From positions 372,001 to 436,000 of the forward strand of contig CP120461.1 in NCBI GenBank assembly GCA_034226945.1: 64,000 bases of DNA. Reading direction: 5' to 3'. Origin of the DNA: Picochlorum sp. SENEW3. Lineage: Eukaryota. Under the pieces are notes generated by a model. The model worked only from the letters and a program-made list of their open reading frames with translations, did no database searches and had not been told where the DNA came from. How positions within the stretch are numbered: position 1 is the stretch's first letter; each line of letters starts with the position of its first letter. The translations under genes and the position numbers were made by a program. Positions 1 to 53,837 of the stretch are shown one piece after another.

Positions 1-40
1 AAGAATCACGACCTTGCGCGGCTTCATCTCGTTCAGCCAT
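1..40 (-). CDS. Possible 5' end of a gene running off the left edge (MAERDEAAQGRDS...)
   Basis: ATG at 40 on the minus strand after an A-rich leader (AAATAAAAATC-ATG), open to the edge. Too short to identify. Confidence 0.35.
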   Translation of the reverse strand, partial: MAERDEAAQGRDS

Positions 41-313
41 GATTTTTATTTATTTTTATATGAGGATACAAGTACCTTATCAATAGGTTGATGGCGTGTC
101 GAAGAGGAAGGAGCAAAGGATTTGGAAGAAATCTGAATAGACACTCCGTACGACTTGACAGGGACAGAATATTCTTTATTACTCTCCAAAAAAAACCAAA
201 AACAAATTAATATACTGCTACCGCTGCTGCTAGGCGACGATACTTGTTGAGATGTGTGTTACAACAACATGACTCTGCTAGTCTCATCTAGAATGCACGC
301 ATGGTAGAAATGC

Positions 314-2195
314 TCATCGTCTGTTGACGGATGTGGCGGCGAGTCGAGAGGTGGCTGTTGGAGGAGCAATGACAGAGACGGGTGTTTTGATATCTCCACC
401 ACACGGCTGTGGTGTCACATGTGGTTTGTTGCTGCGTGCTGGGGGTGGGGCTTTGAGTTGGATGCTTGTGAGTTGTTTGTTGAGCCAGACAATCATCTTC
501 TCATTGTTCTGGGCCTTTTGCACTGATTCTTTCTCTTGTTTTTGGGCCAGCTCGAGTTTCTTTTGTACAGTCTCTGCAATCGCAATGAAATCATTATCAT
601 CGTAATACTAGTAGTATGCGAGTGAATCGCACTCAATACCGTACCTAGCTGCTGTTCTAGTTTTTTATTGTTCTGCTGCAAGTCAGTAACTCGCTCTTGG
701 GCGGATTTAAGTGCTTCCTCCTGCGTTTGCATGAGGTCTTCTCGCTGGTGGGACCGTGCCTGGATGTCATGCAGCTCTTGGGTTGCATGAGCTGCATCTC
801 GAGAGAGCTGTGCAATCTTCTCCTCCAGTGCCTTGATCTTCTCTGCTCTCTCTTGTGATTGTTTTTCATGTGTCTTGGACATTCGTTTCCAATCGTCAAC
901 CCTTGCATCCGCCATATCACTGGCACACTTGTATCCCTCGCAAAGTTCCTTCAGCCTGGATATTTCCCTCGAGTTTTGCGATGTAATCTCCTCCGCAGAT
1001 ACACTATTCCTTTTGTAAGACTCTATTGTATCGTTGAGGCGCTTCGTCTGCTCTCGCAACGATTCCATGTCCTGCTCTTTGGACGAGAGTTCTTTGTGCA
1101 GGCTGAGATTGGTACTCTCGAAATCATGCAACTTGTTCTTCAAAAGCTCGCATTGGTCATTTGCATTCGATACCTGAGACTTGAGCATATCGCATTGTAT
1201 CTTTAGGCTGGATGTTTCGGTGGAATATTGATTCGTATCGGCGGATCGTTGGTGATGTACTGCTGTTAGTTGCTCCCGAACAGCATCTCCATCTCGTCTC
1301 AGGGTCTCAATCGTTGATAGCAGGGTTTCGTTCTCTTCCATGATCTCACGAAGTCTAAATAATAGAAAAGAGTTCATCCCTGCGTCCGAATTCGCTTGTA
1401 ATGAGAGAGTCAAGTGGGCCAACTCCCTGAATGCGTTGCACTCGAGGAACTCAAGCTTGCACTGCCCATGCCCTGCAATGTGAAGGACGATACGGAATTT
1501 CTGTCTACTCTCTGTCTGACACGCTGCTTGATTGGTGGTGCCACGATCGAGAGTCTGGTATGGAACCGACTGGAGACCCTGACGACTACAGTCGGTCCAA
1601 GCGTATGCTTGTTCAAAAAGACACACCACATTCTGCAAGAATTGCTGATATTCGACAAGAAGTTTCTCTTCCCTTCGGATACGCTCGAACGACCGTCCAT
1701 CCAATTCAGCAGAAAAGAGCTTGGCACCACCCTCGCCATGCAGACTAGTAGCTGATATGGTGTCATCCTCACTCTGTTGATACATGTACAATCTCATAGA
1801 CTGCAGGGACAAGCAATAAATCGATACAGTGTGATGAATACTCGAAACAGTCAACGGCATGGTGTAGTCAATATCGGACGCTGTCTATGCTCGGTCAACA
1901 GATGCATGGCTCATGTTGACCAAAATATCTGTGCTCTGTGTTTGTTTCGCACCTCAAAACGGCCCGCTGCGTCTCGTTTTCCCATGAGTCTGACCTCAAA
2001 ATATGATTTCGTTCGATCAGTATCTCGTCGAATGATTTCAACGGGCATTCGCTTCCAAAACACTGTATCTGCGCTGCTGCCCTTGGCAGGCGCTGTGCTG
2101 GCTGGTGAGCGCAGGTCACACAAGGGTGTGTTGGTCCTATTGCGTGCATCACACCACCCCCCATCGGCACTACTATATATATAGTGACAAGACAT
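314..2195 (-). CDS. SAS6: Centriole cartwheel protein SAS-6; exons about 2195-1953, 1800-645, 573-314
   Basis: Head-domain motifs (VFWKRMPVEI, SFERIRREEKLLVEY..F, FRELAHLTLSL), a long coiled coil and the conserved NEKMIVWLNKQL. GT-AG introns 1952-1801 and 644-574 join three ORFs in frame. Start codon uncertain. Confidence 0.85.
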
Positions 2196-33448: not shown

Positions 33449-36400
33449 ATGGCCATTGCGCCTGCTTGGAAAGAGCGAAAGGTTGGTTGTTTTGAATTGA
33501 ACAACGCCATGCGGTCCGACATGAGCATCCATTTGTGACTATATTCAGGTTATACCTTCCATCCGGGTTATTTCATCCAAAGATAAAGCGACGCGAGTAT
33601 TTATAGAGCGCGTAGAGCAGTATACACGATCTGACATTTCATGTGGAAGTTCTCTGTGTTTGCGCAATTGTCGCATTCGGGATGCTCTGAGCGAGGATAT
33701 TCGACGTTATATGTTTCCAAGTGCTACGTGTGTCGAGCGATATATCGATTGCTTCGAGAATGAGACAATTTCTGGTCGACATGGAGTTGTGCTGTGTTTG
33801 AGTGAACTGCAAAAGATATCTCGCCATGCGTTGCGCCTTGTCTCTCGAATTCGATCGTTGTATAGAGATCGGAGGAGGAACGTGTATGTATTTGATGATG
33901 TACATCATGAAGAGGAGGACGTGAAGGGGCCAGTGGCTGCAGCTGGATGGTATTTGGGACATTTGTCAGAGCATCAAGATGTGTCTTGCAGTGCTCTAGT
34001 GGATGATGATGATGACGATTATGGGCGTAGCATAGGAGGAGATGGCTGCATATATATGTATGATTATATGAAATTGGAATGGGGGCAGAATGATGAGATT
34101 ATGAACCTGTTCATGGCAGCTCGAGAGGCTAGGAAGAGTCATGATGCCGCTGCATCAATCTCTCGTGGGGAGGGAATCCGAAAGGCGACGCATGCGCAGA
34201 TTGAGCGAGGAATTCAGCGAGGTGTATATATTAAAGGGACATTGAAAGTGGATGGGAGGCACAGTACGAGTTCGTATGTTGTCAAGGATGATGGTGGTCT
34301 GGTGCATATAATGTCCAGGGAGGACAGATGGCATGCCATTCATGGGGATGACGTTGTCGTCGAGCTCATCCCGGAACAGTCTACTGCATCATGCATAGAC
34401 GATGGAGATGTAGATGATACATTCTCATCGCTGGTTGATGAAGATGTGAATACTCATTCCCAAGCAGTTCAGCAGAAAGGCAGAGTGCTTCATGTGGTGC
34501 AGCGCCGATACAATGATGTTATGGTGGCCATCTCAAAGGAAGATGAGAGAGCTTTGTTAAATCTAGGGTCATCAGACACGATGAAATCTGTCATTTGTGT
34601 GCCGTTTGATCATCGGTTCCCCAAGTTGAGAGTCAAGTCGAGGCATCTTGACACATATATTAGCAAAAGATTCTTGGTGAGGATTATTGGGTGGGACGAA
34701 GATTCATCGTACCCACATGCGCATATTTTAAAGTGCATGGGACCGATGGGTGACTTGAAGACGGAGACTGATGTGCTCCTCCATCGACATGGGCTTTTAT
34801 TTGGTGAATTTGTACAGAGTGCTTTGCATGAACTACCATCTGGGGACGACACGCATTGGGTGCCTCGAGATGATGAAATTCAAAGTGAGATTACTCGTGG
34901 TAGAGTAGATTTACGGGATAAATTTGTGTGCAGTATCGATCCAGAAGGTTGCACGGATGTTGATGATGCAATGCATGTGAGCTGCATCGATAAGGATACA
35001 TTTGAGCTGGGAATTCATATAGCTGATGTGACGCATTTTGTGAAAGATGCTTCATATTTGGAAGAAGAAGCTGCATCGCGATGTACAACAGTGTACCTAG
35101 TGGACAGACGTTTGGACATGCTTCCATCACAGATTTCCGAGAATGCAGCATCCCTTCTTTCTGGGAAACCTAGATTTGCCGTCAGTGTGGTCTGGAAGAT
35201 TGCATACGATGGCTTTAAAGTAATCGATACATGGTATGGACGATCAATCATCCTGTCAAGGTACCAGTTGGAGTATTCCCAGGCACAGGCAATTTTGGAT
35301 GGGCAATCCCACAAGAATGACAAACTGTGTGGCCTTTGCTCTACAGAAGATCTTGAACAAATGCGCCAAGGGCTTGGAATAGTACGACAATTGGCGGAAG
35401 ATAGATTAAGGATTAGATTAAAACATGGAGCCATAGAACTTGATAGTAAAGAATTGAAATTTGAAACCAATGACACTGGGATGCCTCAACGAATGTACGA
35501 GAAGCAGAGTTTGGGTACCATGAAAATTATTGCAGAACTCATGATTATGGCCAATGAAGCTGTCGCCAAGAAGATTTGTGAATCGCACCCAACCTCGGCG
35601 GTGCTGCGATGCCATGCCTATCCTGACAAAGACAAATTGCAGAATATCCATGCATTCTGTCAGAGCTTTTCCATAGGAAACAAGGACATGTTCACTCAAC
35701 CACACACCTTTGGTAAAGATTTACAACATGCCCTTGCGAGCACACAAGATCCAGCTTTGAATTCGTTGCTGAAAGTTGTAGCAAACATGTCCCTCCAGCA
35801 AGCTGTGTACACAACTGCAGGTGCCATGCCCAGTCGGCTTCATGCTGGATTGGGACTGAACAATGGGTACACGCATTTCACGTCTCCCATTCGAAGGTTT
35901 GCAGATATACTGGTTCATAAGCAATTGCTCGAGTCCATCCAGTGGGATGGGCAGTACAAACATACGGCAAGAGATCTTGAGAGCAGAATCAATACCATCA
36001 ACCAAAAGACCAGAGCAGCCAAGATATGCCAGAGAGAATGCTCGCTTTTATACCTTTTGCTTCTATTTGCGGAAACCCCTACACGATTTGAAGCGATTGT
36101 TGAGGAGATTGAAGAATCATTCATTCGAATTTTTATTCCACAAGTCGATCTGAGGGTAGGCCACATTGCTCTTGTCATGATCCATGATGATTTCTGCATG
36201 ATTCACAAATACACTCATTCATGTGTAGGGACTAATCAGATTTGATCCTCCAGACAGAAAATCGACTGCTCTGTCGCTTCTCTTCCCATCATCATCAGAA
36301 ACAGAGCACATCTCCATTCATGTTTCAGATCAAGGACAGTATGGGTATGAGTCAATCTCATTCCAGGACGCCTCATCACAGGCATCTTTCTCACTGCATC

Positions 36401-37655: not shown

Positions 37656-38513
37656 ATGAATGTGAGTAGAATAGCCGCCTCATCGCCAAAGCTTTGTTGT
37701 GGTCCTTGTGGTAGAGTACCACCACACCTCTGGACACAAACACACAGGTCTGCTGCAACGCACCGCATCACATCCCAGGTCCCTCATAGTAACAGAAATT
37801 GCATTGCACGCGATTCTGTAAATGAGAAGGGAGAGCTGGAGACACCCGCTGGATTCGTGAGGGCAGAGCCCGTCAGAATTGAGAGGATTTCATTTGGATC
37901 CATCCTGACTCCTGTTGGTCTTGGTTTGCTCACGTATGGCTTTGGAGCCTTTTTCCAACTACTTCCAGGAGGAGATGTATCTTCTCTTTTGCTTATTTAT
38001 GGATTCCCAATCTCTCTGCTTGGATTTGCGCTGAGCTATGCCCAGCTCAGACCTGTGCCATGCTTTTCTCAGCCAGAGGCTCTTCAAATTAGAGAATCTC
38101 AGGCAACTGATATTCAAAATCAACTCAGAGATGACGTGACTCGGTTTAGATATGGAGATGAGCAGCATTTGGATGAAGCATTGTCGAGAATTTTCAGATT
38201 TGGACAGGCCAAGGGTCTTCCGAGAAGATTTTGCCCGATATTGGTTGCTGTGCGTGAGGAGGTGAGGGGTGGGCAGTACACTCTCGTCTTGGATTTCGAA
38301 ACAAAAGAAGGCATGGAGGATGAGGAATGGATAAGTAGAAAGGAAAAGATTCAATCCTTCTTTGGACCTGGTATTGTTGTAGAACTGACACCACGCCAAG
38401 GTGGACAGGAGGTTGCTCTGATAACAGATGGGTCAGGGGCTGGCAAAGAAGGAGGAGAAAAGAAGGATGTCTTGCCACCCCTCATGCCTGGAATGAAACC
38501 TCGCCAGCAGTAG
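37656..38513 (+). CDS. APE1: Thylakoid protein APE1 (DUF2854)
   Basis: Transit peptide, two TMs, YGFP..LLG.AL.YAQL.PV, QAT.IQ.Q.R.DVTRFRYGDEQHLDEAL.RIF, FFGPG. Confidence 0.92.
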   Translation: MNVSRIAASSPKLCCGPCGRVPPHLWTQTHRSAATHRITSQVPHSNRNCIARDSVNEKGELETPAGFVRAEPVRIERISFGSILTPVGLGLLTYGFGAFFQLLPGGDVSSLLLIYGFPISLLGFALSYAQLRPVPCFSQPEALQIRESQATDIQNQLRDDVTRFRYGDEQHLDEALSRIFRFGQAKGLPRRFCPILVAVREEVRGGQYTLVLDFETKEGMEDEEWISRKEKIQSFFGPGIVVELTPRQGGQEVALITDGSGAGKEGGEKKDVLPPLMPGMKPRQQ

Positions 38514-42607: not shown

Positions 42608-45600
42608 ATGAGGAATTTTAGGGTGGATATTAGCTGTCTAAATCTACTCCTTGTCGTAGTGGTAGTCTTACTGCAGTTGGTGGTGCAGTCGAGGAGTTTG
42701 ACGTACAAGCCTGATAAAGATGCATTGTTGGCATTCAAGGACAGCGTAGAAGACTATGGATATATTCTAAGTAGTTGGAGTGAGTATACAGATCCATGCA
42801 TTGATCAATGGCCAGGCGTGTCTTGTACCTGCTATCCTTTCTTCGAGCCTTCTGGTGGGCCAGATAGGGCTCAGTCATGTTATCCCCTGGAGCCGTATTT
42901 GGCAGAACAGGGGTCCCGAGTATTGCAATTGAATTTTGGAGATATAAGAATAACAAAATGGAATGTTTTGATTGGGCAGTTACCTGCCGCATTAGGGAAT
43001 TTGACAGAGTTGAGGATACTCAACCTGGCTGGGAACAACTTTTGGGGGCCCATCCCAGAGGAATGGTCAACCTTAAAGGAGCTGGAGATTTTATCGTTGC
43101 AGAATAATAATATCTCTGGATTTTTGCCACCGTATCTCTCGACCTTCTACAACTTACGATACGTGTACCTGGATAATAACTCTTTTGTTGGACCAGTTCC
43201 GTCACAGTGGTGTGATGGGGGCTGGTGGATCTTTGATGTTCGGAATAACCCAGGTACGACTCATATAAACTCTTTGCAATATTTTTTCATGGTAGTATAA
43301 CTTTCTGGGTTGTTATTCAGGACTATGTGATGAAGTTTCTTGGTGTCTGGAAGATCGACTGTTGACTTTTGATGGCACATCCCTTGTTGATGTTGTGTCT
43401 GACAGAGATAAGGGTCTTGGGGGTTATTGTGATATAGGAGTACCAGTCTGTGATTTGGGAGAAGCAGCATGTGAAATTCAGATTCCGAAGCCACCGTACT
43501 GGGTAAATCCTGACAGAGTTTCTTTCTCAATACCTGATTACACATCTGCAGAGGGTGGTGTGGCCACAAAGTTCAAGTGGAAGATTTGTGTGAAAGATGG
43601 CGCATGTCTTATGGATTGGATGGATTATAATGGCAAGGATTTGATACAGTCTGCACAAGTAGTGGACCCATACTCACAAGAAACTGGCATTATCGCCCAA
43701 CTTGTCCATGTTGTAGACTCTGAACTTCCTGACAGCGTGTCTCTAAAGAATGGAGTCGTTTACAACGTGAAAGTGCTTGTTTACAATGCTGCGGGAGTAT
43801 TGAATGGTATAGAACTAACCTCTAGGGATGTATTGGCTGATCTTGTTCCTCCAAAATTGCCAGAGGGCAAGTCAGTTTACAATGGTGAATTCCTGAAAAA
43901 TGTAGCTGCTCAGCTCAGCACAAATGGCATGGGGGTCTCGTGGGACGCATTTGAAGATACCGAGTCGGGCATTGACTACTACTTGTACCAAATATTTGAG
44001 TATGGAAATAATGGGACGACAGAGAATTCGTATGTTGGAAGGCCAGTGACTCGGAAGACAAGAGTCAACAGTGTAGATGACAGAAACGTGTATGCTACAC
44101 AATTAGCTCTCAGTCCAGGTAAAAAGTATTTCGCACGAATTACTGCTGTCAATGGAGCGGGGGTACAAAATTGGGCTGATAGTGCGCCAGTATCTGTGAT
44201 TCTTCCGGGAGAAGGCATTGTTGTTGAGACAACCACCAAGGGTGTCAAGGTTAGCAGTCTTGTAGTCGTCCTTGCTGTCGTTGGCTCTGTACTTGTTCTT
44301 TTGTTTCTCATCACACTTTTCTTAATTAGAAAGAGATATAGAACTAGAAGAGAGGCTAGTAGAAGACGCAAAGGCCAGTTGAAGAACATTAGACAGCTTT
44401 TGAACAATATGTCAGACCAAGTTGGCAGCGCAAATGTTGAGGATAAGCCCAAACTGGATGAACTAAAATATGTTGCTTTCGTGATCACAGATCTCGAGAA
44501 TTCCACCAAAATAGCTTCATCTGCTCCAAATGTGTATGACTTCGTGCAAGAGGCGCATGATACTCTTATGAGAGACCTGATTGCAGCTTATGGGGCATAC
44601 GAAATAAATACCGAGGGCGATGCATTCCATGTAGCTTTCCGGGATGTAGGTACTGCTGTACAATTCTGTATGGAAATTCAGTATGAAATGATGCAGATAG
44701 AATGGCCCAAAGAAGTATTAAAAATATCAGGCTGTGAGGCAGTATATTCAAAGTCACAGAATCATTTCATATATAGAGGACCGAGGATTCGGATGGGCAT
44801 ACATTGGGCAGATGAAGGTCACGTCGTCCAGCAAGTCCACTCAATAACAAAACACAGGATTTTTTCTGGTAGCGCCTTCCAGGTCACGCGAGAGCTCTGC
44901 GAGGCTGCAAAGGGAGGTCAGGTTCTTTTAACACATGCAGCATGGGAGAAGTTGCGTTCTGACATGAGCTCCGCTGGATTCCCGGTTGTGGAACAGTTGG
45001 GATCATACGCATTTGAAACAAGTCAGAAACCAATATGGGTGTACCAAATCCGAAGCCTTTTGGGGAAACCTCTGCATAGGCCAATCGGCCAAACCGCTGC
45101 TAATTTGAAGAACCTCAGACTCTTGAATCAGGGTGCCGCTCTGTCAACCTCGTCAGCACCAATGCCTTTGACAAAGAAAGGTAACCTGGCATTTGTATGT
45201 ATCAAACTTGACAGAGACTGCATTCCAGCGACATCGAATAGGAGTGAGATCCCCTCAAAAGTGACTGAACTTTTGCAAGAGACTATTTGTGCCTGCTCCA
45301 TGCAGTACCAGGGATACTTGTTCAGAACAACCGAAAATGGGTATTTTTATTTGGCCTATCACTCTGCTGTTGATGCTGTTAGAATGAGCCATTTGATTCA
45401 GGTGATTTTGATGGCAGTTCGATGGCCTTCAGAGTTCCAAGATTGGTATGGAAAAGAGGAAAGCTCTGCTGACGGGAAACTTCTTTTCAAAGGACCAAGG
45501 ATCTCAATAGGCATACACGAAAGCAGTGATTACAGTATTCGGCCAATACCTCAAACGAAAGTCACACCTGATGGTATTTCACATATGGATTACTTGGGAC

Positions 45601-47645
45601 CTGCAGAAGAGGCTTCTCGGGCACTGAGTGATTGTGCGCATGGTGGGCAGGTTGTTCTAAGTGAATCTGCATGGTCTGCTGTCCAGCATCAGCTTCCTGC
45701 TGGCCCCACTGTCATTAGCTTGGGTACCCATGCCTTCAAAGAGCCCTGCTTCTCAGATCCAATTTTGCTCATGGAAGTCATGCCCAAACTGCTGAGTAGA
45801 AGAACGTTCCCGCGGCCAAAACAGACGACAATGATAGATCCAGGGTATCGAGATGCACCTGCTGCAAACACTGTTGTCACAATAGCACATCTCAAAATAG
45901 TCAAACCTGCGATAGTGATTGAAGCAGAGAGGCACTTGCAGGACGAGAAGGCTGATGCCTCCAGCAAAGAAGTTCTTCATCTATTCGCAAGAAGTATTGG
46001 AATAGCATCCAAGGCCATCAGAATGCTGCTCAAAGAGTATGGAGGTTACGAGTGCAAAGAACCACAACCTGGAAAATTCACATTAGCTTTTGCGGAACTA
46101 GAAGCAGCAATTAGATGGGCTGCTGCTGTCCAAGCTGCACTTGTTGGTCTCGATTGGCCAGAGAGGATATTGGAATGGACAGAATGCTCCCCTACTTTTG
46201 ATATTGATGATGGGGACCATTCTTCGGATAATGATAGCTATCTGTCAGATTCAGAAGTGGCTATTCCCAAGAGTGAATCAACACAGTGGCATGATGGATC
46301 GAGTCGAATAGGAACCAAGCAATGGTCAAGCAAGGTGCTATTGTGGAGAGGCTTGCCTGTTAGAATTGGCATGGCATCTGGAGTCCCATTATCAAAAGCT
46401 CCGCTGAACACTGGAAGAGCTGATTATTATGGAACGATTCCTAACCTTGCAGCTAGGTTGGTGCACATTGCCAGACCTGGACAGATTCTCTTTGACGCTG
46501 CAAAGCTTGATACTCTATCAAATATGAAGTGGAATGGAGGACGAGCGTACCTCTCTGGTGATAATACCTTCTTGAAAGACCAGGTTGGTGGTGGTGTCTA
46601 CCTAACCCCCATCGGGCAGCTGAAAATTAAGGGGTTGGAAGATCTTCGTTCTGTCTTCCAAGCCGACTCGTGGTTGCTACAATCGAGGGAATTCGAAGAG
46701 ATCCCGTGCGTTGTCCATTCAGTGGTTGCTACAAACATCACACGGCGCATGGCATCCTTGAGGAAAGCCAGTGAAGCCTCCTCAGGCTTCCATCCGACTG
46801 TGGCAGAGAAACCACATGTATCCAAGCCAGGAATATTTGCATCAATTTCTAGAACAAGAGATGCAGGTATTCTTAAGCGAATGAGCATGTCATTTTCAGC
46901 TAGATCCAACTCAAGAGAAGTTGACAGTGTAGAGAACAGCATGCCATTTCATGCGTCAACCAGTGATGGTCAGCCTGCTAATATTTCTTACAGCGATACC
47001 TCATCGCTTGGAGGGGTATTACTGAAGCAGGCTGTCATGTCTTCCAACGCGTACGGGAAAAATTCTGAATCTAGTTTAGCAACGACACCAAAATCTCAAA
47101 TGAGCCATGAATACTTCCACGGCATCAGAAACTCACCAGAACGGCATAGGTTGGCGCCAACAGTAAAGCCACCCGAGGATAGTCGACATCATAATTCAGA
47201 CACCCTGAAGCGCTGCGAAGGCCCGTATGGATCATTAGACGATTTTGCAAAATGGGATGGCAGTGACTCTCTGGTCAAAACACCAACAGCACAGTCAAAA
47301 GTTGTAGACCACTGGGATGCAAGCTTGGCCCTCGAGGAGGCCTTGCATGCAAACAAAGACAAGATCGGTATCCACCATCACGCAGACAAGACGAGTGATG
47401 CGATTGGCAGCGAAGATGGGGATACCAACAGCTTGTCTGACCAAGGTCATTTCTACATGAATGAGAAGGTGAGATCCCACAGTAGAATGTGGTACGAGAG
47501 CAAGAGCCTGCGGAGAGAAACGTCTCTTCCTACTACCTCATCGATTGATGAAGCAAGGAAATCGGGAAACATCAAAAACAAAATAGCAGAGAAATTCCGG
47601 CGTGGCCAAGGAGATGAAAAGAACGATTCAATGAGAATATTTTAA
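42608..47645 (+). CDS. LRR / Fn3-like / TM receptor with three class III nucleotide cyclase domains; exons 42608-43253, 43321-47645
   Basis: Signal peptide, LRRNT (DKDALLAFK..SW...DPC..WPGVSC), plant-type LRRs (L.ILNL.GN.F.GPIP), NNPG|LC cap across the intron, SW..F.D.ESGI..Y repeats, TM about 44260-44327, cyclase motifs TDLENST, TEGDAF, RIRMGIH, DYYG..PNLAAR. Confidence 0.9.
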
Positions 47646-47658
47646 TTGATGCTTACAT

Positions 47659-48330
47659 TTATGCACGTTGATATACTGTAACATATCTAATACTCTTTGA
47701 GTCTACTTGCATTTCGGTTATTTGCCGTAGCTCGGCTCCATTCTGCTCCAATACAAACGTATCCCTGCATGTTCCACTGTATGGCCCCTCCCATGTGACC
47801 ATGATAGATGGCCATTTCCCATCAACAATCTCAACTTTGCCTGTGTGAAAACCTTTTCTCTTATCTCGCCGAGAATGCTTGACAGTTTCTCCTGTCCATG
47901 GATATTCCTCTACAACATCCATAATACCACCTGCCTTGAGGACTGTTTTGAACATTGTACTCCGATCATCAAGTAGCACAAGTGTATTCAGAAACTTCAA
48001 AGCCTTCCTAAACACCCAAGGTAGCTCGACCATATCACATGCTTCATCCATTGAGTCGCTTTTATCAGGCAATTTCTTCCACGTCCCGGTCACAGAGCCC
48101 AGGTCAAACCTCCCAATAGCCTCTGGCTCAGAGACACCAGCAGTGCCGGACTCTGGCAAGCAATATCTACCAAGATCGTCTCTGTTCACGCCATAGGACT
48201 CTAATGAACTGTTCAAAATATCTCTTGATCGTTTTGTACGACGCTGTTGGACCCCAATAGCACAAAAAGGCACACCTAAGTGACAACTATGGCTGCAACA
48301 AAACTGTTGTAGTGCCACAACCATTGCCAA
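47659..48330 (-). CDS. Uncharacterised protein, possibly calycin/FABP-like beta-barrel
   Basis: TGTWKK...KSDSMD......LPWVFRKA followed by beta-strand-like segments. Fold call is tentative. Confidence 0.6.
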   Translation of the reverse strand: MAMVVALQQFCCSHSCHLGVPFCAIGVQQRRTKRSRDILNSSLESYGVNRDDLGRYCLPESGTAGVSEPEAIGRFDLGSVTGTWKKLPDKSDSMDEACDMVELPWVFRKALKFLNTLVLLDDRSTMFKTVLKAGGIMDVVEEYPWTGETVKHSRRDKRKGFHTGKVEIVDGKWPSIMVTWEGPYSGTCRDTFVLEQNGAELRQITEMQVDSKSIRYVTVYQRA

Positions 48331-48648: not shown

Positions 48649-51499
48649 ATGAGTAATAATAGCAATACACCGGGAAAAGGCAACGAGAATGTCTCATTCC
48701 TTGGCAGGCTATTTCAGTTTGCGTCGAGCAAAAGTCCTGACTCGTCTTTTGCTTTGGCCAACAAGACTGACTTGTTGCCCAGTGGGGTTCAGAGGGCGGA
48801 CGATGCCCTTTTGAATGATCAAGAGGCGCTTTTGAATGAAATAACTGATGAATATTTCAATGATGGATTTGATGCGGTGCATTTTGAGTTGCAAAATATG
48901 GGAGTTGATGTTGAGTCTGAAGAGTTGGCTCAGCTTGCTGAACGAAGAAGTTCTGCCCTGGACATTATCCATGATACGCTGAGTTCTAATATTCTAAAGG
49001 AATATGATAACTTTCATAATGCTTTGAATGGTATATCTCGATTGCAAGAGGTGCTGGGGGCTGCCAAGGTGCAGGCCAAGGTGTCAAGAGAAAATTTGTC
49101 CAGGGCCTCATTGGAAGTCAAGCATGGGATTGCTGTTTGGAAGAATGCTCAGAAAAAGAAGAGTATATCTAGCACTTTGGATATCTTGAAAAAGTTGCAG
49201 AGCGCGCGACGTATTTTGGAGAAGAGCAGGGAAAACATGGATAACGAAAACTATGGAATAGCTGTTCAGGAATGCGGGGCATGTGGGGATGTGTTATCAG
49301 AGTTGCTGCCACTGGGAATCCAAGCCGCGGATTTGGTATCTAGGGATGCAAATGATCTTTTATGCGACATTGCTGAACAAATGTACGAGACAGCCTTGTC
49401 CATGACGACGCAGTTTGATGCTGTAAGGTACTCCAGTCTACTGGAAGGGTATTCGTACATAACAGATAGTAGTAGAGTGGTTGGGGGAGGCGAATTATCT
49501 CCCACTCAAGAAGTTATATCGGCATATACGAGCTCACCGTATGCCAAGGTGAAGAAGGTTATTGCTAGTGTGCTGTATAGCAAGTTGGATGGGCAGGCAG
49601 TATCAAGTGATTCGAGTCTCATGGATTTGCTTGCGCATCTGCCGGCGGATTCTTTTAGAGTTTGTATTCAACAAGTTCTCAAGGTTGAATTCGATATAAT
49701 GTGTTCGTTTTATTCTCTGGAGCAGTGGCATAGTCGGAATAATTGTGCTTCAGGTAAGGATGATTTGAACCATGCAGAAAGGATGATGGGGGGGATCAGA
49801 GAAGCGTTACCAAGAGGCAAGCGACTTGTTTGGAATGAAATTAGTGGTTCTTTGATGAATGTGCTACAGGCGGTGAAGTTGGGTCACGGGGAGAACTTTA
49901 TCGTGGTGTCTAAATGGGTGAATACATTTTTGAACATTGGCCACGCCTTCTCAGGGGAGAATCCAGAAGCGCTCCAGGCGATTCTAAGTCAGCAAGCATT
50001 GAGGTTCTTCAAGGGACATCATTTGAATTCAATTGAAGCTCTCCAGATTGTGCTTGAGAGGGAAACATACAAGGTGATTGATATCGAACTGCCCTGGCTT
50101 CAAGAGAATGGATCTGCAGTGTTTGTGAAAGACTACACTGATATCTCCGATGAGGCACTAGATGATTTGATGACTCAAAGTAACCCATGGAATACAGATA
50201 GCGAAGGTACGCCTCATCTTTTTTTCTAAATAGTGTGATGTATGATGCTATTGTAGTTTTGAGTGTGATGCAGATGTGCTTGACATGCTGTCACATGTAA
50301 AGGCAGCTTTTCGTCAGAAAAGTGTCGTTTTAGGCAATGGAAAATCGCTCAATACAATAAATTCATTGTGGAGGCTTATTAAATGGATGATGGAATACGT
50401 GTCTCTCATGAAGGATTTGCCATCTGCCACCCCAGCAATAGCAACAGGGCTCACAGAGTTGGTCGACATTTTCATCCTACATGTGTACTCGACATTTGTT
50501 GGTCATACAAATACGAGAGGAACAGTATACAGCTCCGAGTCGCTGGATGAATACATCCATTTTATGAGGGAGACAAGCTTGGGAAAGTACAAATCTTTGT
50601 TTCAATCATCTAGCCCTGAATCTGCATTGGTAGGTATCCTATCCCATGATAAACCAGTCAAAAATTCAGACAAATTTTCTCAGGCGTCGTCAATCAGTAA
50701 TTCTGGTAATCTATATGGATTTGTGGAGCGCATAATCACATGCAATTCTCTGAGAGAGCTGGGAGAATTCCTCAAGCAGCTTGGCAGTCTTTTAGGAAAT
50801 TTCTCGTCAGCGTCCTCTGTAGATCTGGAAAAGTGTCAATACCATTTTTCAAGGGTATCAAGCATTTTACCTGACGTGATCAGGGCCCTTCAGGGATCCT
50901 GCTGTTGCTTGTTGTTACCACTGACCTGGTTGCCAGTGGCAGTGAGCCAAGGTCTCTACCTTCCGAGCGAACCTCCATCGATAGCGAGCGGGTGGACTGA
51001 TACATTAGCACGCCAACTTCAACTTTTATCCGCGCAACTAGAGTCCGTGCAAAGAAGCCCACCTGAAGCTGCATTAGAGATGTGGTCTTTTGTGTTCCCA
51101 GCAGTCTCCAGAGCCATTGTTGAAGGTCTATCTCAGGTCAAAAAGTGCACATTGGAAGGCAGAGCAGCAATGTCATTAGATCTACAAGCTGTTTCAAAAA
51201 TACTGAACAAAATAAAACCATCGCACAATGCAGATGTCGCAGATTCCACAATCTGTTCTCTGATTGATGCACAGAGAGAGGCTGCCATTCGCTCCATTGA
51301 TGATTACATCAAGGGCTTTTACGTCCCACTCACAGACCTCCATACGTGGGCAGAGGCGCATCCGTCCTACTCCATCCCTCAGGTACTCGCACTGGCATCG
51401 TGCATTGCAGAAAGCAGCGGGATGAAGAAGAAGGACATTGCTGCAGCCATAGAAGAAGTGGAGGGCCACCTCATCAAGCAATCCAAGGGGAGAAAATGA
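48649..51499 (+). CDS. VPS50: Syndetin / VPS50 (EARP complex); exons 48649-50206, 50274-51499
   Basis: Vps54_N-like start (YF...FDAV.FEL); C-terminal GLSQVKKCT.EGRAAMSLDLQ, DYIKGFY, W...HP.YS..Q. Confidence 0.88.
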
Positions 51500-52114: not shown

Positions 52115-52475
52115 CTTGACTAATGTATCAAATGGAGCAAGTCTGTAAGGAAAATATTGACGAAATATTCTTCATCGCGTGCACGTGTTGATGGCTTATC
52201 TCGTTGCCGTGGCTATGAATTCGCAGCTCCTATGGATCCTATCAAATGATGCGTTTGATGGGCACGTAGTGATAGAAGAACGATGCTTAGATAAGGTCGG
52301 TCACGGGATGCCTTTATTGGTTGGGACATGGCAAAGAGCGAGGCATGGAGGACGGTTCTTTTTCTTCATCGTCCATCGGCATGCATGCGTCATTGAAATT
52401 TTCAAAAGATACTTCTAACCAGTATGAATTACTGTGTGGTTTTATGGGGCGGTTCCGAGGCGGAAGAGAAGAAGA

Positions 52476-53837
52476 ATGGTTTCTGTGTCAGCAGCAAGAG
52501 GGACTGAAGAGCCTTGTTCTTGCTCTCACTGTGGAACCCTTGTTATTCTGGACGTTCCTGTCGGAAGTGCTGTAGGGGTTGACCAATATGTATATACAGT
52601 TGGAGAGTCGTTCAAAGGAATAAAGCATGTGCCTCATGGGACACATGTTGTGTCATATGCAGCATATGACCCTATTGGATCCAGGTTTGGGCCTGTTACG
52701 GCCATGTTTGTGGAGGTTCCAAAGGTGGAGCGGTTTGATGACGACAGATGCGCTGGTATGGATCATGATACTGCGTGGATGGTTGATAGCGCATTGCATG
52801 GGCCTGTGTTGGGTTGGAAATGGAATGGTCAGGAGGAGATACTGGAGCGCATCAAAGAGGATTCCCCAGATATGGCAAGAGTTGAGGGGATGGTTCGTGA
52901 ACTGCGATGGGATAGAGAGTTGGGGTCATATGTAACTATGCATGCGGTGCGGGGACAGGAAGGGCCGACAGTATCGTGGAGAGCGCATGAGGAATGGATG
53001 GGCCTGTCCGGCTACATTGACAGTCGTGTGTTGAAGAGAGTAGCTCCTACAGGGGGAAATGTGTGCATCATTGCTGAAGGGGACCATACACTCCTTCGCC
53101 AAGATGGAAAGCATATAAAGACAGAGGCTGAGGTTGCGTTGGATGAGCAGTTGAAGGACTCCACTGTAGAGATGTCTCACAGTGGGGCCTCACATGCAGG
53201 TCGGTGTCACTTCACTCCTGTTCCACAACTGATTAAAAATGCCAATTTGAGTCCTGAGGATTTGACAGCATGGAATATGGACAAGTCAAAAGCATTAGAT
53301 GCCCTTCTGAAGGATCATTTTGGCAATGATGAGTCGCTCTTCTTGGGTGAGTTTCAATTCTCTTTCATCTCCTTTCTTCTTGGGCACTCTATTGAAGGGT
53401 TTTTACAGTGGAAACATATTCTTGTGCTGCTTTTCAGTTGCGAAGAAGCCGTCACGTGTGGGAGGAAACTTTTATTTAAAAATGCGTTACGCATCATATA
53501 CGACCAACTTTCGTTCAGTTTTCATAAGAGGAGTAGCAAGAGCGTTCGGCACAATAATGATCTCGGACCATCTGTCAACAATGCTGGAGGAGATGCTGTT
53601 TTCGAACAACTTTTAGAAGACAGTTTCTTGAAGAAAAAGTCTGTATCATTCATACGACGCATAGAATCGGAAAGCGATGCCTTTGATCCGGACCTGTATT
53701 CACTGGTTGTCAGCCTGGGCCGACTGATATCATCCTCACTCTCTTGGGAATGCGGTCCAGTACAAGATGTGGGGATATCCGCACTCTTGGATGATGAAGA
53801 TGGTCCAGTTATTGTCAATATAGATGAATTTTTATGA
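52476..53837 (+). CDS. AAR2: U5 snRNP assembly factor AAR2
   Basis: LDVP.G..VG.D...Y.VG..FKGIK.VP.G.H, MDKS..L, LGEFQFSFI.FL.G.S.EGF.QWK. Confidence 0.93.
   Translation: MVSVSAARGTEEPCSCSHCGTLVILDVPVGSAVGVDQYVYTVGESFKGIKHVPHGTHVVSYAAYDPIGSRFGPVTAMFVEVPKVERFDDDRCAGMDHDTAWMVDSALHGPVLGWKWNGQEEILERIKEDSPDMARVEGMVRELRWDRELGSYVTMHAVRGQEGPTVSWRAHEEWMGLSGYIDSRVLKRVAPTGGNVCIIAEGDHTLLRQDGKHIKTEAEVALDEQLKDSTVEMSHSGASHAGRCHFTPVPQLIKNANLSPEDLTAWNMDKSKALDALLKDHFGNDESLFLGEFQFSFISFLLGHSIEGFLQWKHILVLLFSCEEAVTCGRKLLFKNALRIIYDQLSFSFHKRSSKSVRHNNDLGPSVNNAGGDAVFEQLLEDSFLKKKSVSFIRRIESESDAFDPDLYSLVVSLGRLISSSLSWECGPVQDVGISALLDDEDGPVIVNIDEFL

What the first reader, a model, noticed from the sequence alone, without database searches (positions are those of the whole stretch)
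44470..46670. Cyclase domains 1 and 3 split the catalytic residues; domain 2 looks dead
Seen: domain 1 keeps both metal-binding Asp (ITDLENST, NTEGDAF) but lacks the specificity Lys/Asp and the catalytic Asn/Arg (IFSGSAFQVTRE). Domain 3 lacks the metal Asp residues but keeps Lys (YECKEP), Asp and N..R (ADYYGTIPNLAAR). Domain 2 lacks the metal Asp and N/R (DYLGPAEEASRA). Established: mammalian AC C1/C2 pseudo-heterodimers divide residues this way, and K/D specifies ATP. Inference: one composite ATP-specific site from D1+D3, with D2 as a regulatory or dimerising pseudo-cyclase.
Basis: partly seen in the sequence, partly recalled or inferred. Interest (0 to 1): 0.78.

Follow-up and report, generated by a model that had tools for sequence, protein, structure and literature searches.

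The report
Green-algal receptor cyclase with three cyclase domains
A green-algal gene encodes a cell-surface receptor whose inner part carries three copies of a cyclic-AMP-making domain: the first and third each keep one complementary half of the catalytic residues, and the middle one keeps none yet is strongly conserved.

Summary
All quoted motifs lie at the stated coordinates in one two-exon gene (42608-43253 and 43321-47645, + strand, 1656 aa). The protein has a signal peptide, plant-type LRRs, FN3, one TM helix, three tandem class III cyclase homology domains (CHDs) and a Ser-rich tail.

Aligned to T. brucei GRESAG4 cyclases:
- D1 keeps both metal Asp (D377, D420) but has N/I/Q/E at the Lys/Asp/Asn/Arg positions.
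- D3 keeps K899, D1021, N1028 and R1032 but has no acidic metal residue.
- D2 has none of the catalytic set, yet is a true CHD (hhalign 99.6% to D1; predicted fold Z 19.0).

The split is not chance. Of 53 proteins with the D1-D2-D3 order, D3 reads KDNR in 47 and QDNR in 3, and D1's second Asp is kept in 53. Named members span five classes of green algae. D2 is strongly constrained (dN/dS 0.032).

Best reading: a receptor-type adenylyl cyclase with one composite ATP site type built from D1 and D3, and D2 as a conserved non-catalytic pseudo-cyclase.

Not shown: physical D1:D3 pairing, whether it forms within one chain or between two, enzyme activity, and D2's role. I found no description in print.

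The parts
42608..43253 (+). Exon 1: start ATG, hydrophobic signal-peptide-like N-terminus, LRRNT_2 cap (about 42710-42829) and plant-type leucine-rich repeats (about 42986-43183)
   Evidence: ORF. Pfam LRRNT_2 E 7.7e-12, LRR_1 2.8e-11, LRR_8 3.2e-06. The exon end comes from the splice model.
43254..43320 (+). Predicted 67-nt GT..AG intron
   Evidence: Removing it joins the frames to read ...NNPG|LCDEVSWCLEDRLLTFDG..., colinear with homologue P0003 (...HNPGLCDEIDWCLEDRILTFDG...). No RNA contig across the joint was found, so the intron is inferred.
43321..47645 (+). Exon 2, to the stop codon. With exon 1 it gives a 1656-aa protein. P0001 numbering used in this report starts at window 43362.
43905..44183 (+). 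Fibronectin type III domain of the ectodomain (P0001 182-274)
   Evidence: Pfam fn3 E 4e-07, 30.6 bits against a cutoff of 25.
44256..44327 (+). Single hydrophobic transmembrane segment (P0001 about 299-322), followed by the basic stretch RKRYRTRRE
   Evidence: Read from the translation. No dedicated TM predictor was run.
44445..45077 (+). D1 (P0001 362-572), the C1-like half. Metal Asp D377 (44490-44492) and D420 (44619-44621). N416, I500, Q507, E511 stand at the Lys/Asp/Asn/Arg positions.
   Evidence: PF00211 E 1.4e-09, 38.3 bits. 1fx4 E 7.9e-18 with printed alignment. VIA Z 24.8, rmsd 2.6, 208 aligned. Conservation.
45078..45167 (+). D1-D2 linker (P0001 573-602), poorly conserved
   Evidence: Mean identity 0.34.
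45168..45797 (+). D2 (P0001 603-812), a catalytically empty pseudo-cyclase domain. K615/G660 at the metal positions, R655, D743, E750, A754 at the Lys/Asp/Asn/Arg positions.
   Evidence: No Pfam hit at E<=10. 1fx4 E 0.023. hhalign to D1 99.6%, E 7.6e-24. Predicted CHD fold: 3mr7_A Z 19.0, rmsd 3.2, 171 aligned, model 250..459. dN/dS 0.032.
45798..45857 (+). D2-D3 linker (P0001 813-832) with the conserved ...R.FP.P....PGYRDAP motif
   Evidence: Invariant and near-invariant columns. Mean identity 0.62.
45858..46661 (+). D3 (P0001 833-1100), the C2-like half. K899 (46056-46058), D1021 (46422-46424), N1028 (46443-46445), R1032 (46455-46457). No acidic residue at the metal positions. Variable acidic/Ser-rich insert at about 46212-46328.
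   Evidence: PF00211 E 2.4e-04, 21.2 bits, just under the 21.9 cutoff. 1fx4 E 7e-08 with printed alignment. hhalign to D1 99.2%. KDNR in 37 of 37 and 47 of 53. The insert is model residues 597-635 with pLDDT below 50.
46662..47642 (+). Ser-rich C-terminal tail (P0001 1101-1427), low conservation, no known domain
   Evidence: No Pfam hit under E 0.1. Mean identity 0.33. dN/dS 0.135.

Best explanation
The gene encodes a single-pass, receptor-type class III adenylyl cyclase of a green alga. Outside the cell it has a plant-type LRR plus FN3 ectodomain. Inside it has three tandem cyclase homology domains that arose by an old triplication.

Catalysis needs a head-to-tail pair of D1 and D3. D1 supplies the phosphate loop and the two metal-binding Asp (D377, D420). 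D3 supplies the adenine-specifying Lys/Asp (K899, D1021) and the transition-state Asn/Arg (N1028, R1032). This gives one competent ATP site and one degenerate pseudo-site per D1:D3 pair, as in mammalian C1:C2 and soluble adenylyl cyclase. The product should be cAMP.

D2 contributes no catalytic residue to any possible pairing. It is retained as a folded, strongly constrained pseudo-cyclase that holds, orients or gates D1 and D3.

Shown here: domain homology, residue assignment, conservation of the split, constraint on D2.
Inferred: physical D1:D3 pairing, ATP as substrate, control by the ectodomain, D2's role.
For: Domains:
- D1 matches PF00211 (38.3 bits). D3 scores 21.2 bits. D2 is seen only by profiles.
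- All three hit T. brucei GRESAG4 chains best: E 7.9e-18, 0.023 and 7e-08.
- AF2 model of P0001 355-1105: mean pLDDT 86.2, pTM 0.81.
- Fold matches: D1 to 1fx4 at Z 24.8; D2 to 3mr7_A at Z 19.0.

Residues: the printed alignments put D377/D420 on the metal Asp, and K899/D1021/N1028/R1032 on Lys/Asp/Asn/Arg.

Conservation:
- In 37 aligned homologues, GYECKEP and D..N..R of D3 are kept in 37 of 37. The D1 EGD motif is kept in 37 of 37. The D1 TDL motif is kept in 34 of 37; the other 3 are truncated.
- Of 190 CHD-bearing proteins examined, 53 have D1, D2, D3 in that order. D3 reads KDNR in 47, QDNR in 3, and is incomplete in 3.
- In those 53, D1's second Asp is kept in 53. The first position is Asp in 47, Glu in 1 and a gap in 5.
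- No D1 has Lys at the Lys position or Arg at the Arg position. No D2 has both Asn and Arg.

Age and spread:
- In a tree of 77 domains, the D2 rows form one group (SH-aLRT 93). The D1 rows of three-domain proteins form a group at 98 and the core D3 rows at 100.
- Named members: Nannochloris, Micractinium, Myrmecia, Trebouxia, Symbiochloris, Ostreobium; Tetraselmis, Pyramimonas, Chloropicon; Gonium.

Selection:
- Against locus L001, dN/dS is 0.032 for D2 (210 codons, dS 0.78), 0.083 for D3 and 0.135 for the tail.
- Of the 40 strain differences listed, 33 are synonymous.

Logic: neither D1:D2, D2:D3 nor any homodimer would hold a complete residue set. Only D1:D3 does.
Against: - No structural support for D1:D3 pairing. 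Tandem-CHD chains (6r3q_A, 4clf_A, 6yii_A) aligned to D1+D2 of the model at rmsd about 23 A, and no two-domain match involving D3 was listed.
- A model of a natural two-domain relative also failed to match them (rmsd about 15.7 A). The method was therefore uninformative rather than contrary.
- The complex predictor was unavailable.
- D3 alone scores just under Pfam's cutoff and D2 has no Pfam hit.
- No enzyme data exist.
- Transcription is only hinted at by contigs from RNA libraries, and the intron is unconfirmed.
- Some relatives have Gln or Glu in place of the Lys, so specificity may vary in the wider family.
Confidence: 0.7

Rival explanations
1. The composite site forms between chains. 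Two receptors associate antiparallel in the cytosol as D1:D3', D2:D2' and D3:D1'. D2 is the symmetric dimerising module, and ligand-driven receptor dimerisation is required for activity, as in trypanosome and guanylyl cyclase receptors. This is a variant of the best explanation, not its opposite.
For: - Single-pass receptor cyclases with one CHD need dimerisation (passages of PMC6027212).
- CHDs pair head to tail with two-fold symmetry. A D2:D2' pair on the axis would bring D1 to D3'.
- D2 keeps a CHD fold under strong constraint without catalytic residues.
- The linkers are short, 30 and 20 residues.
Against: - The AF2 monomer model packs the three domains confidently within one chain (pTM 0.81).
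- Both N-termini must stay at the membrane, which strains an antiparallel arrangement.
- No multimer prediction could be run.
Confidence: 0.25
2. D2 is an autoinhibitory decoy. At rest D1 pairs with D2, giving a site with metals and a base-recognising Arg/Asp but no Asn/Arg, which binds ATP without turnover. A signal from the ectodomain swaps D2 for D3.
For: - D2 keeps a basic residue at the Lys position and the Asp in most members: an RD.. pattern in 35 of 53, plus 1 KD.. row.
- D2 is closest to D1 by profile.
- D2 is strongly constrained.
Against: - The deeper members (P0035, P0038, P0041 and others) have lost these D2 residues.
- In the AF2 model D1:D2 is not arranged like C1:C2 (rmsd about 23 A).
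- There is no direct test.
Confidence: 0.15
3. The protein is a non-catalytic pseudo-enzyme or nucleotide sensor, in which all three CHDs serve only as binding or scaffold modules.
For: - Two of the three domains are catalytically incomplete taken alone.
- A solved tandem class III cyclase-like protein is titled an ATP-binding protein (6yii).
Against: All six canonical catalytic residues are kept in complementary domains across 47 to 53 of 53 family members from several algal classes. That is hard to explain without catalysis.
Confidence: 0.06
4. It is a cyclase for another nucleotide (GTP, or a pyrimidine nucleotide) rather than ATP.
For: - More distant D1..D3 relatives have Gln, or Glu with Ala/Ser, at the specificity positions, e.g. 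the Mesostigma proteins P0208 and P0230.
- CHD-fold UMP and CMP cyclases appear among the fold matches.
Against: The window protein and 47 of 53 three-domain proteins have Lys and Asp, the ATP pair (the rule itself is recalled knowledge).
Confidence: 0.08

Closest known systems
Mammalian membrane adenylyl cyclases (C1/C2 catalytic core; e.g. 1cs4, AC9 6r3q)
   Same: Catalytic residues are divided between two homologous CHDs of one chain: metal Asp pair in the first, Lys/Asp/Asn/Arg in the last. One active and one degenerate site is expected. D1 matches the 1cs4_A C1 fold at Z 18.2.
   Different: Here there are three CHDs instead of two, one TM helix instead of 2x6, and an LRR/FN3 ectodomain. 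The CHDs belong to the GRESAG4-like subfamily. The C1:C2-like geometry was not reproduced by the models.
Soluble adenylyl cyclase ADCY10 (C1-linker-C2; 4clf)
   Same: Tandem CHDs in one chain form a pseudo-heterodimer with a single ATP site.
   Different: sAC has no membrane anchor and no ectodomain, and a short linker subdomain rather than a whole third CHD between the halves. sAC aligned to D1+D2 of the model only at rmsd 23 A.
Trypanosoma brucei receptor-type adenylyl cyclases (GRESAG4.1/4.3; 1fx2, 1fx4)
   Same: They are the best sequence and fold match for all three domains. They share the overall plan of ectodomain, single TM and cytosolic CHD, and a similar C-terminal '...L..R.F' tail after the CHD.
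   Different: The trypanosome enzymes have one fully competent CHD that must homodimerise, and a Venus-flytrap-type ectodomain (passages of PMC6027212). Here there are three CHDs with divided residues and an LRR/FN3 ectodomain.
Plant LRR receptor-like kinases (ectodomain only)
   Same: LRRNT_2 N-terminal cap followed by plant-type LRRs, then a single TM helix.
   Different: The intracellular output is a cyclase array, not a protein kinase, and there are only a few LRRs followed by FN3.
Tandem multi-CHD proteins of diplonemids and other protists (P0127, P0130, P0048, P0182)
   Same: Same CHD subfamily, repeated 2 to 5 times in one chain.
   Different: Most of their CHDs keep the full DKDDNR set, so each could work in homotypic pairs. 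There is no complementary split and no LRR ectodomain.

Membership tests
Class III nucleotidyl cyclase (cyclase homology domain, Pfam PF00211) | CHD sequence and fold | tested here: met
   D1: 38.3 bits against the 21.9 cutoff, VIA Z 24.8 to 1fx4. D3: 21.2 bits alone, 1fx4 E 7e-08, hhalign 99.2% to D1. D2: no Pfam hit, but hhalign 99.6% to D1 and predicted fold Z 19.0 to 3mr7_A.
Class III nucleotidyl cyclase (cyclase homology domain, Pfam PF00211) | Two metal-binding Asp | tested here: met
   Met in D1 only (D377, D420). D2 has K615/G660 and D3 has no acidic residue at these positions (strand register).
Class III nucleotidyl cyclase (cyclase homology domain, Pfam PF00211) | Substrate-specifying pair (Lys/Asp for ATP) and transition-state Asn/Arg | tested here: met
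   Met in D3 only (K899, D1021, N1028, R1032). D1 has N/I/Q/E. D2 has R/D/E/A.
Class III nucleotidyl cyclase (cyclase homology domain, Pfam PF00211) | Head-to-tail CHD dimer with the active site at the interface | tested here: inconclusive
   Structure searches with the AF2 models showed no C1:C2-like pair for the window protein, nor for a two-domain relative used as a control.
Class III nucleotidyl cyclase (cyclase homology domain, Pfam PF00211) | Cyclase activity | not testable with these tools
   Needs an enzyme assay.
C1/C2-type pseudo-heterodimeric adenylyl cyclase (tmAC, sAC) | Complementary division of catalytic residues between two CHDs of one chain | tested here: met
C1/C2-type pseudo-heterodimeric adenylyl cyclase (tmAC, sAC) | Exactly two CHDs; for tmAC also two six-helix membrane domains | tested here: not met
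   Three CHDs and one hydrophobic segment.
Trypanosomatid receptor-type adenylyl cyclase | Ectodomain, single TM, cytosolic GRESAG4-like CHD | tested here: met
Trypanosomatid receptor-type adenylyl cyclase | One fully competent CHD per chain that homodimerises; VFT-type ectodomain | tested here: not met
   No single domain holds the full residue set. The ectodomain is LRR plus FN3.
Trypanosomatid receptor-type adenylyl cyclase | Delta-subdomain insertion in the alpha3-beta4 loop | tested here: inconclusive
   The alignment to 1fx4 runs through that region with gaps. VIA aligns 208 of 231 residues. The subdomain was not examined residue by residue.
Plant-type LRR receptor ectodomain | LRRNT_2 cap plus LRR repeats ahead of a single TM | tested here: met
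   LRRNT_2 45.7 bits, LRR_1 41.7 bits.

The most novel reading that the evidence does not exclude
The middle pseudo-cyclase D2 is a switch module special to this family. Either it is the symmetric dimer interface of an antiparallel receptor pair (D1:D3', D2:D2', D3:D1'), or it is a decoy partner that holds D1 in an ATP-bound but inactive D1:D2 pair until the LRR ectodomain signals. Either way, partner exchange among three CHDs, rather than simple dimerisation, would turn cAMP synthesis on. That would be a new way of regulating class III cyclases, and a green-lineage LRR receptor that signals through cAMP instead of a kinase.
Probability: 0.2. Interest if true: 0.8.

Novelty: new variant of a known kind. 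Interest (0 to 1): 0.58.

Why it matters
Class III cyclases are known either as homodimers of one competent domain or as C1/C2 pseudo-heterodimers of two. Here a third, catalytically empty domain sits between the two halves. It has been kept in that order across at least five classes of green algae, under stronger purifying selection than the catalytic D3.

The array is joined to a plant-type LRR receptor ectodomain. That offers a tractable model for three questions:
- how pseudo-enzyme domains regulate their active paralogues;
- how single-pass receptors can control a cyclase that already carries both catalytic halves;
- how extracellular signals reach cAMP in the green lineage.

Pfam finds only one or two of the three domains, and sources name these proteins 'adenylate cyclase' or 'hypothetical protein'. 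The architecture is therefore hidden in current annotation.

Tried and rejected
- Complex prediction of D1 with D3 plus ATP and 2 Mg. The job was never accepted: queue full or too early, then 'not available, do not retry'. D1:D3 docking is untested.
- Reading inter-domain geometry from the AF2 model. No coordinates are returned.
  - Foldseek aligned human sAC chains over about 520 columns at rmsd about 24.6 A, TM 0.29-0.31.
  - VIA listed only single-domain matches in the second look.
  - In the wide search, 6r3q_A, 4clf_A and 6yii_A aligned to model 7..460 (D1+D2) at rmsd about 23 A.
- Control: AF2 of P0187, a natural two-domain D1-D3 relative, with a 14-row alignment (mean pLDDT 71.7, pTM 0.66). 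The same tandem chains aligned at rmsd about 15.7 A. The approach does not recover a canonical pair even where only two domains exist, so I draw nothing from it about D1:D3.
- RNA evidence. Contigs from two marine metatranscriptome runs cover parts of exon 2 at 95-99% identity. No contig joins across the predicted intron, and one probable DNA contig runs through it. Transcription and splicing are not shown.
- The whole genome of the window is not held, so paralogues could not be counted.
- Earlier findings of this scan: none by place or by sequence.
- Eight literature searches found no paper describing three-CHD or LRR-linked class III cyclases of green algae. Their scope is open PubMed Central papers and bioRxiv only.
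  - Passages of PMC8115329 mention green-algal cyclase groups in a tree, without architecture.
  - Passages of PMC12223298 and PMC9433096 did not bear on this.
- An early reading that D1 keeps the catalytic Arg (R510) was dropped. The ungapped alignment to 1fx4 puts E511 at that position.
- dN/dS with the three more distant loci was unusable because dS is saturated.

Full report
**Gene and organism**

The finding lies in a long + strand ORF, 43362-47645 (1427 aa, P0001). The ORF just upstream, 42608-43300, carries a hydrophobic N-terminus, an LRRNT_2 cap and leucine-rich repeats. Removing a 67-nt GT..AG intron (43254-43320) joins the two in frame. The result is a 1656-aa protein whose junction (...NNPG|LCDEVSW...) is colinear with the 1654-aa homologue P0003.

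The layout is:
- signal peptide, LRRNT_2 and LRRs;
- a Cys-rich stretch and FN3 (Pfam fn3 E 4e-07);
- one hydrophobic TM segment;
- three cyclase homology domains: D1 (P0001 362-572), D2 (603-812), D3 (833-1100);
- a Ser-rich tail.

Neighbouring ORFs are eukaryotic housekeeping genes: Vps54/syndetin, a Dis3-like RNB exonuclease and AAR2. Every named close homologue is from a green alga. No whole genome is held for this window.

**The observation**

- D1 alone matches Pfam PF00211 (E 1.4e-09, 38.3 bits).
- D3 alone scores 21.2 bits, just under the 21.9 cutoff.
- D2 has no Pfam hit at E<=10.

Against solved structures, all three domains hit the T. brucei receptor cyclases GRESAG4.3/4.1 best: D1 E 7.9e-18, D3 E 7e-08, D2 E 0.023. 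Family profiles show that all three are homologous: D1-D2 99.6% (E 7.6e-24), D1-D3 99.2%, D2-D3 98.0%.

The printed alignments fix the catalytic positions:

| Domain | Metal 1 | Metal 2 | Lys | Asp | Asn | Arg |
|---|---|---|---|---|---|---|
| D1 | D377 | D420 | N416 | I500 | Q507 | E511 |
| D2 | K615 | G660 | R655 | D743 | E750 | A754 |
| D3 | not acidic | not acidic | K899 | D1021 | N1028 | R1032 |

R510 in D1 and R753 in D2 each sit one residue out of register.

**Is it more than chance?**

Yes. In an alignment of 37 homologues:
- D3's GYECKEP and its D..N..R are kept in 37 of 37;
- D1's EGD is kept in 37 of 37;
- D1's TDL is kept in 34 of 37; the other three records are N-terminally truncated.

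An exhaustive phmmer search of 1.84 billion representatives gave 7872 hits at E<=0.001 and 156 at E<=1e-30. I scanned 190 CHD-bearing proteins with my own D1, D2 and D3 HMMs and read out the catalytic columns. Fifty-three proteins have D1, D2 and D3 in that order. Among them:
- D3 is KDNR in 47, QDNR in 3, and incomplete in 3;
- D1's second Asp is present in 53, and the first is Asp in 47, Glu in 1 and a gap in 5;
- no D1 has Lys at the Lys position or Arg at the Arg position (2 have Asn);
- no D2 has both Asn and Arg.

Named members come from:
- Trebouxiophyceae: Nannochloris, Micractinium, Myrmecia, Trebouxia, Symbiochloris;
- Ulvophyceae: Ostreobium;
- Chlorodendrophyceae: Tetraselmis;
- Pyramimonadophyceae: Pyramimonas;
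- Chloropicophyceae: Chloropicon;
- Chlorophyceae: Gonium.

In a tree of 77 domains, the D2 rows form one side of a branch (SH-aLRT 93). The D1 rows of three-domain proteins group at 98, and the core D3 rows at 100. The triplication therefore predates the divergence of these lineages.

**D2 is catalytically empty but not decaying**

- Mean identity to the window protein across 36 homologues is 0.67 for D1, 0.52 for D2, 0.50 for D3, 0.46 for the ectodomain and 0.33 for the tail.
- Against the closest relative with DNA (locus L001), dN/dS is 0.032 for D2 (210 codons, dS 0.78), 0.083 for D3 and 0.135 for the tail. D1 is not covered by that locus.
- With three more distant loci dS is saturated, but dN ranks D1 < D2 < D3 < tail.
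- Of the 40 strain differences listed by read laying (100 more were not shown), 33 are synonymous. In D2 the count is 11 synonymous to 2 non-synonymous.
- The AF2 model predicts D2 as a well-folded CHD (pLDDT mostly 81-97; Z 19.0, rmsd 3.2, 171 aligned to 3mr7_A).

**Mechanism**

In class III cyclases the active site lies at the interface of a head-to-tail pair of CHDs. In mammalian enzymes C1 gives the metal-binding residues and C2 the specificity residues (passages of PMC6027212).

Only one pairing here assembles a complete residue set: D1 (phosphate loop ITDLENST and two Asp) with D3 (Lys/Asp and Asn/Arg). D1:D2, D2:D3 and all homotypic pairs are incomplete. The pseudo-symmetric second site of a D1:D3 pair is degenerate on both sides, as in C1:C2.

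The strict, family-wide retention of exactly these complementary halves is the main argument that D1 and D3 work together and that the protein is an active cyclase.

Lys plus Asp at the specificity positions indicates ATP. That rule is recalled knowledge. It is consistent with the titles of the 'KDA to EGY' Ma1120 entries bound to GTP.

**What could not be shown**

- The complex predictor never accepted the D1+D3 job and was then declared unavailable.
- The AF2 model of P0001 355-1105 is confident (mean pLDDT 86.2, pTM 0.81), but no coordinates are returned.
- Structure searches gave only per-domain matches. Tandem-CHD chains (AC9 6r3q_A, sAC 4clf_A, 6yii_A) aligned to D1+D2 at rmsd about 23 A. 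So D1:D2 of the model is not C1:C2-like, and nothing was learnt about D1:D3.
- As a control I folded a natural two-domain D1-D3 relative, P0187. The same chains aligned at rmsd about 15.7 A. This route does not recover a canonical pair even there, so I treat it as uninformative.
- Whether the D1:D3 site forms within a chain or between two chains, and what D2 does (scaffold, dimer interface or decoy), remain inferences.
- Transcription is only hinted at by contigs from RNA libraries, and the intron is unconfirmed.

**Comparison with known systems**

The protein works like a C1/C2 pseudo-heterodimeric adenylyl cyclase. It is not a member of the tmAC or sAC architectures, because it has three CHDs, one TM helix and an LRR/FN3 ectodomain.

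Its CHDs are closest to trypanosomatid receptor cyclases, and the overall receptor plan is similar. Those enzymes, however, have a single competent CHD that homodimerises, and a different ectodomain.

The same CHD subfamily also occurs in three other forms:
- tandem arrays of fully competent domains in diplonemids, Capsaspora and others;
- two-domain D1-D3 proteins in Mesostigma and Fabomonas, some with Glu/Ala or Glu/Ser at the specificity positions;
- four C1-like halves in one Lagenidium protein.

The LRRNT_2/LRR ectodomain recurs in the Tetraselmis and Pyramimonas members, while one relative has a Receptor L domain instead.

**Novelty**

Eight full-text searches found no description of three-CHD or LRR-linked class III cyclases in green algae. 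The library holds only open PubMed Central papers and bioRxiv. Database names are 'adenylate cyclase', 'class 3 adenylate cyclase' or 'hypothetical protein'.

I rate this a new variant of a known kind. The catalytic principle is classical. The conserved third pseudo-domain and the LRR receptor coupling are not.

Noticed in passing
P0125 (Lagenidium giganteum protein, 2472 aa; not in the window): It has four CHDs, each with the metal Asp pair but T/V/E at the Asp/Asn/Arg positions. That makes four C1-like halves and no C2-like half in the same chain, so the catalytic partner, if any, must be another protein.
   Followed up: partly
P0127, P0129, P0130 (diplonemid proteins, e.g. Diplonema japonicum, Namystynia karyoxenos): Five tandem CHDs of the same subfamily. 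Four keep the full DKDDNR set and the second is degenerate.
   Followed up: partly
window 48649-50229 and 50276-51499, + strand: Two adjacent ORFs match Vps54_N (E 1.2e-33) and Syndetin_C (E 2.7e-36). They are probably two exons of one syndetin/VPS50-like gene with a short intron between them.
   Followed up: no
window 47659-48330, - strand: A 223-aa ORF with no Pfam hit, convergent with the cyclase gene. Its end lies 14 nt after the cyclase stop codon.
   Followed up: no
window 45798-45857 (D2-D3 linker) and the ends of D1 and D3: Each CHD is followed by an 'L..R.F(P).P'-like tail. The D2-D3 linker (...RRTFPRPK....DPGYRDAP) is better conserved (0.62) than D2 or D3 themselves. Its role is unknown.
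   Followed up: partly
P0208, P0230 (Mesostigma viride), P0198 (Fabomonas tropica), P0141 (Chloropicon primus): Relatives with D1-type and D3-type domains carry Glu+Ala/Ser or Gln in place of the Lys/Asp pair. This hints that the wider family includes guanylyl cyclase-like or otherwise respecified members.
   Followed up: partly
window 33660-36245, 37656-38513, 52434-53837, + strand: Ordinary eukaryotic genes: a Dis3-like RNB exoribonuclease, a DUF2854 protein and AAR2.
   Followed up: no
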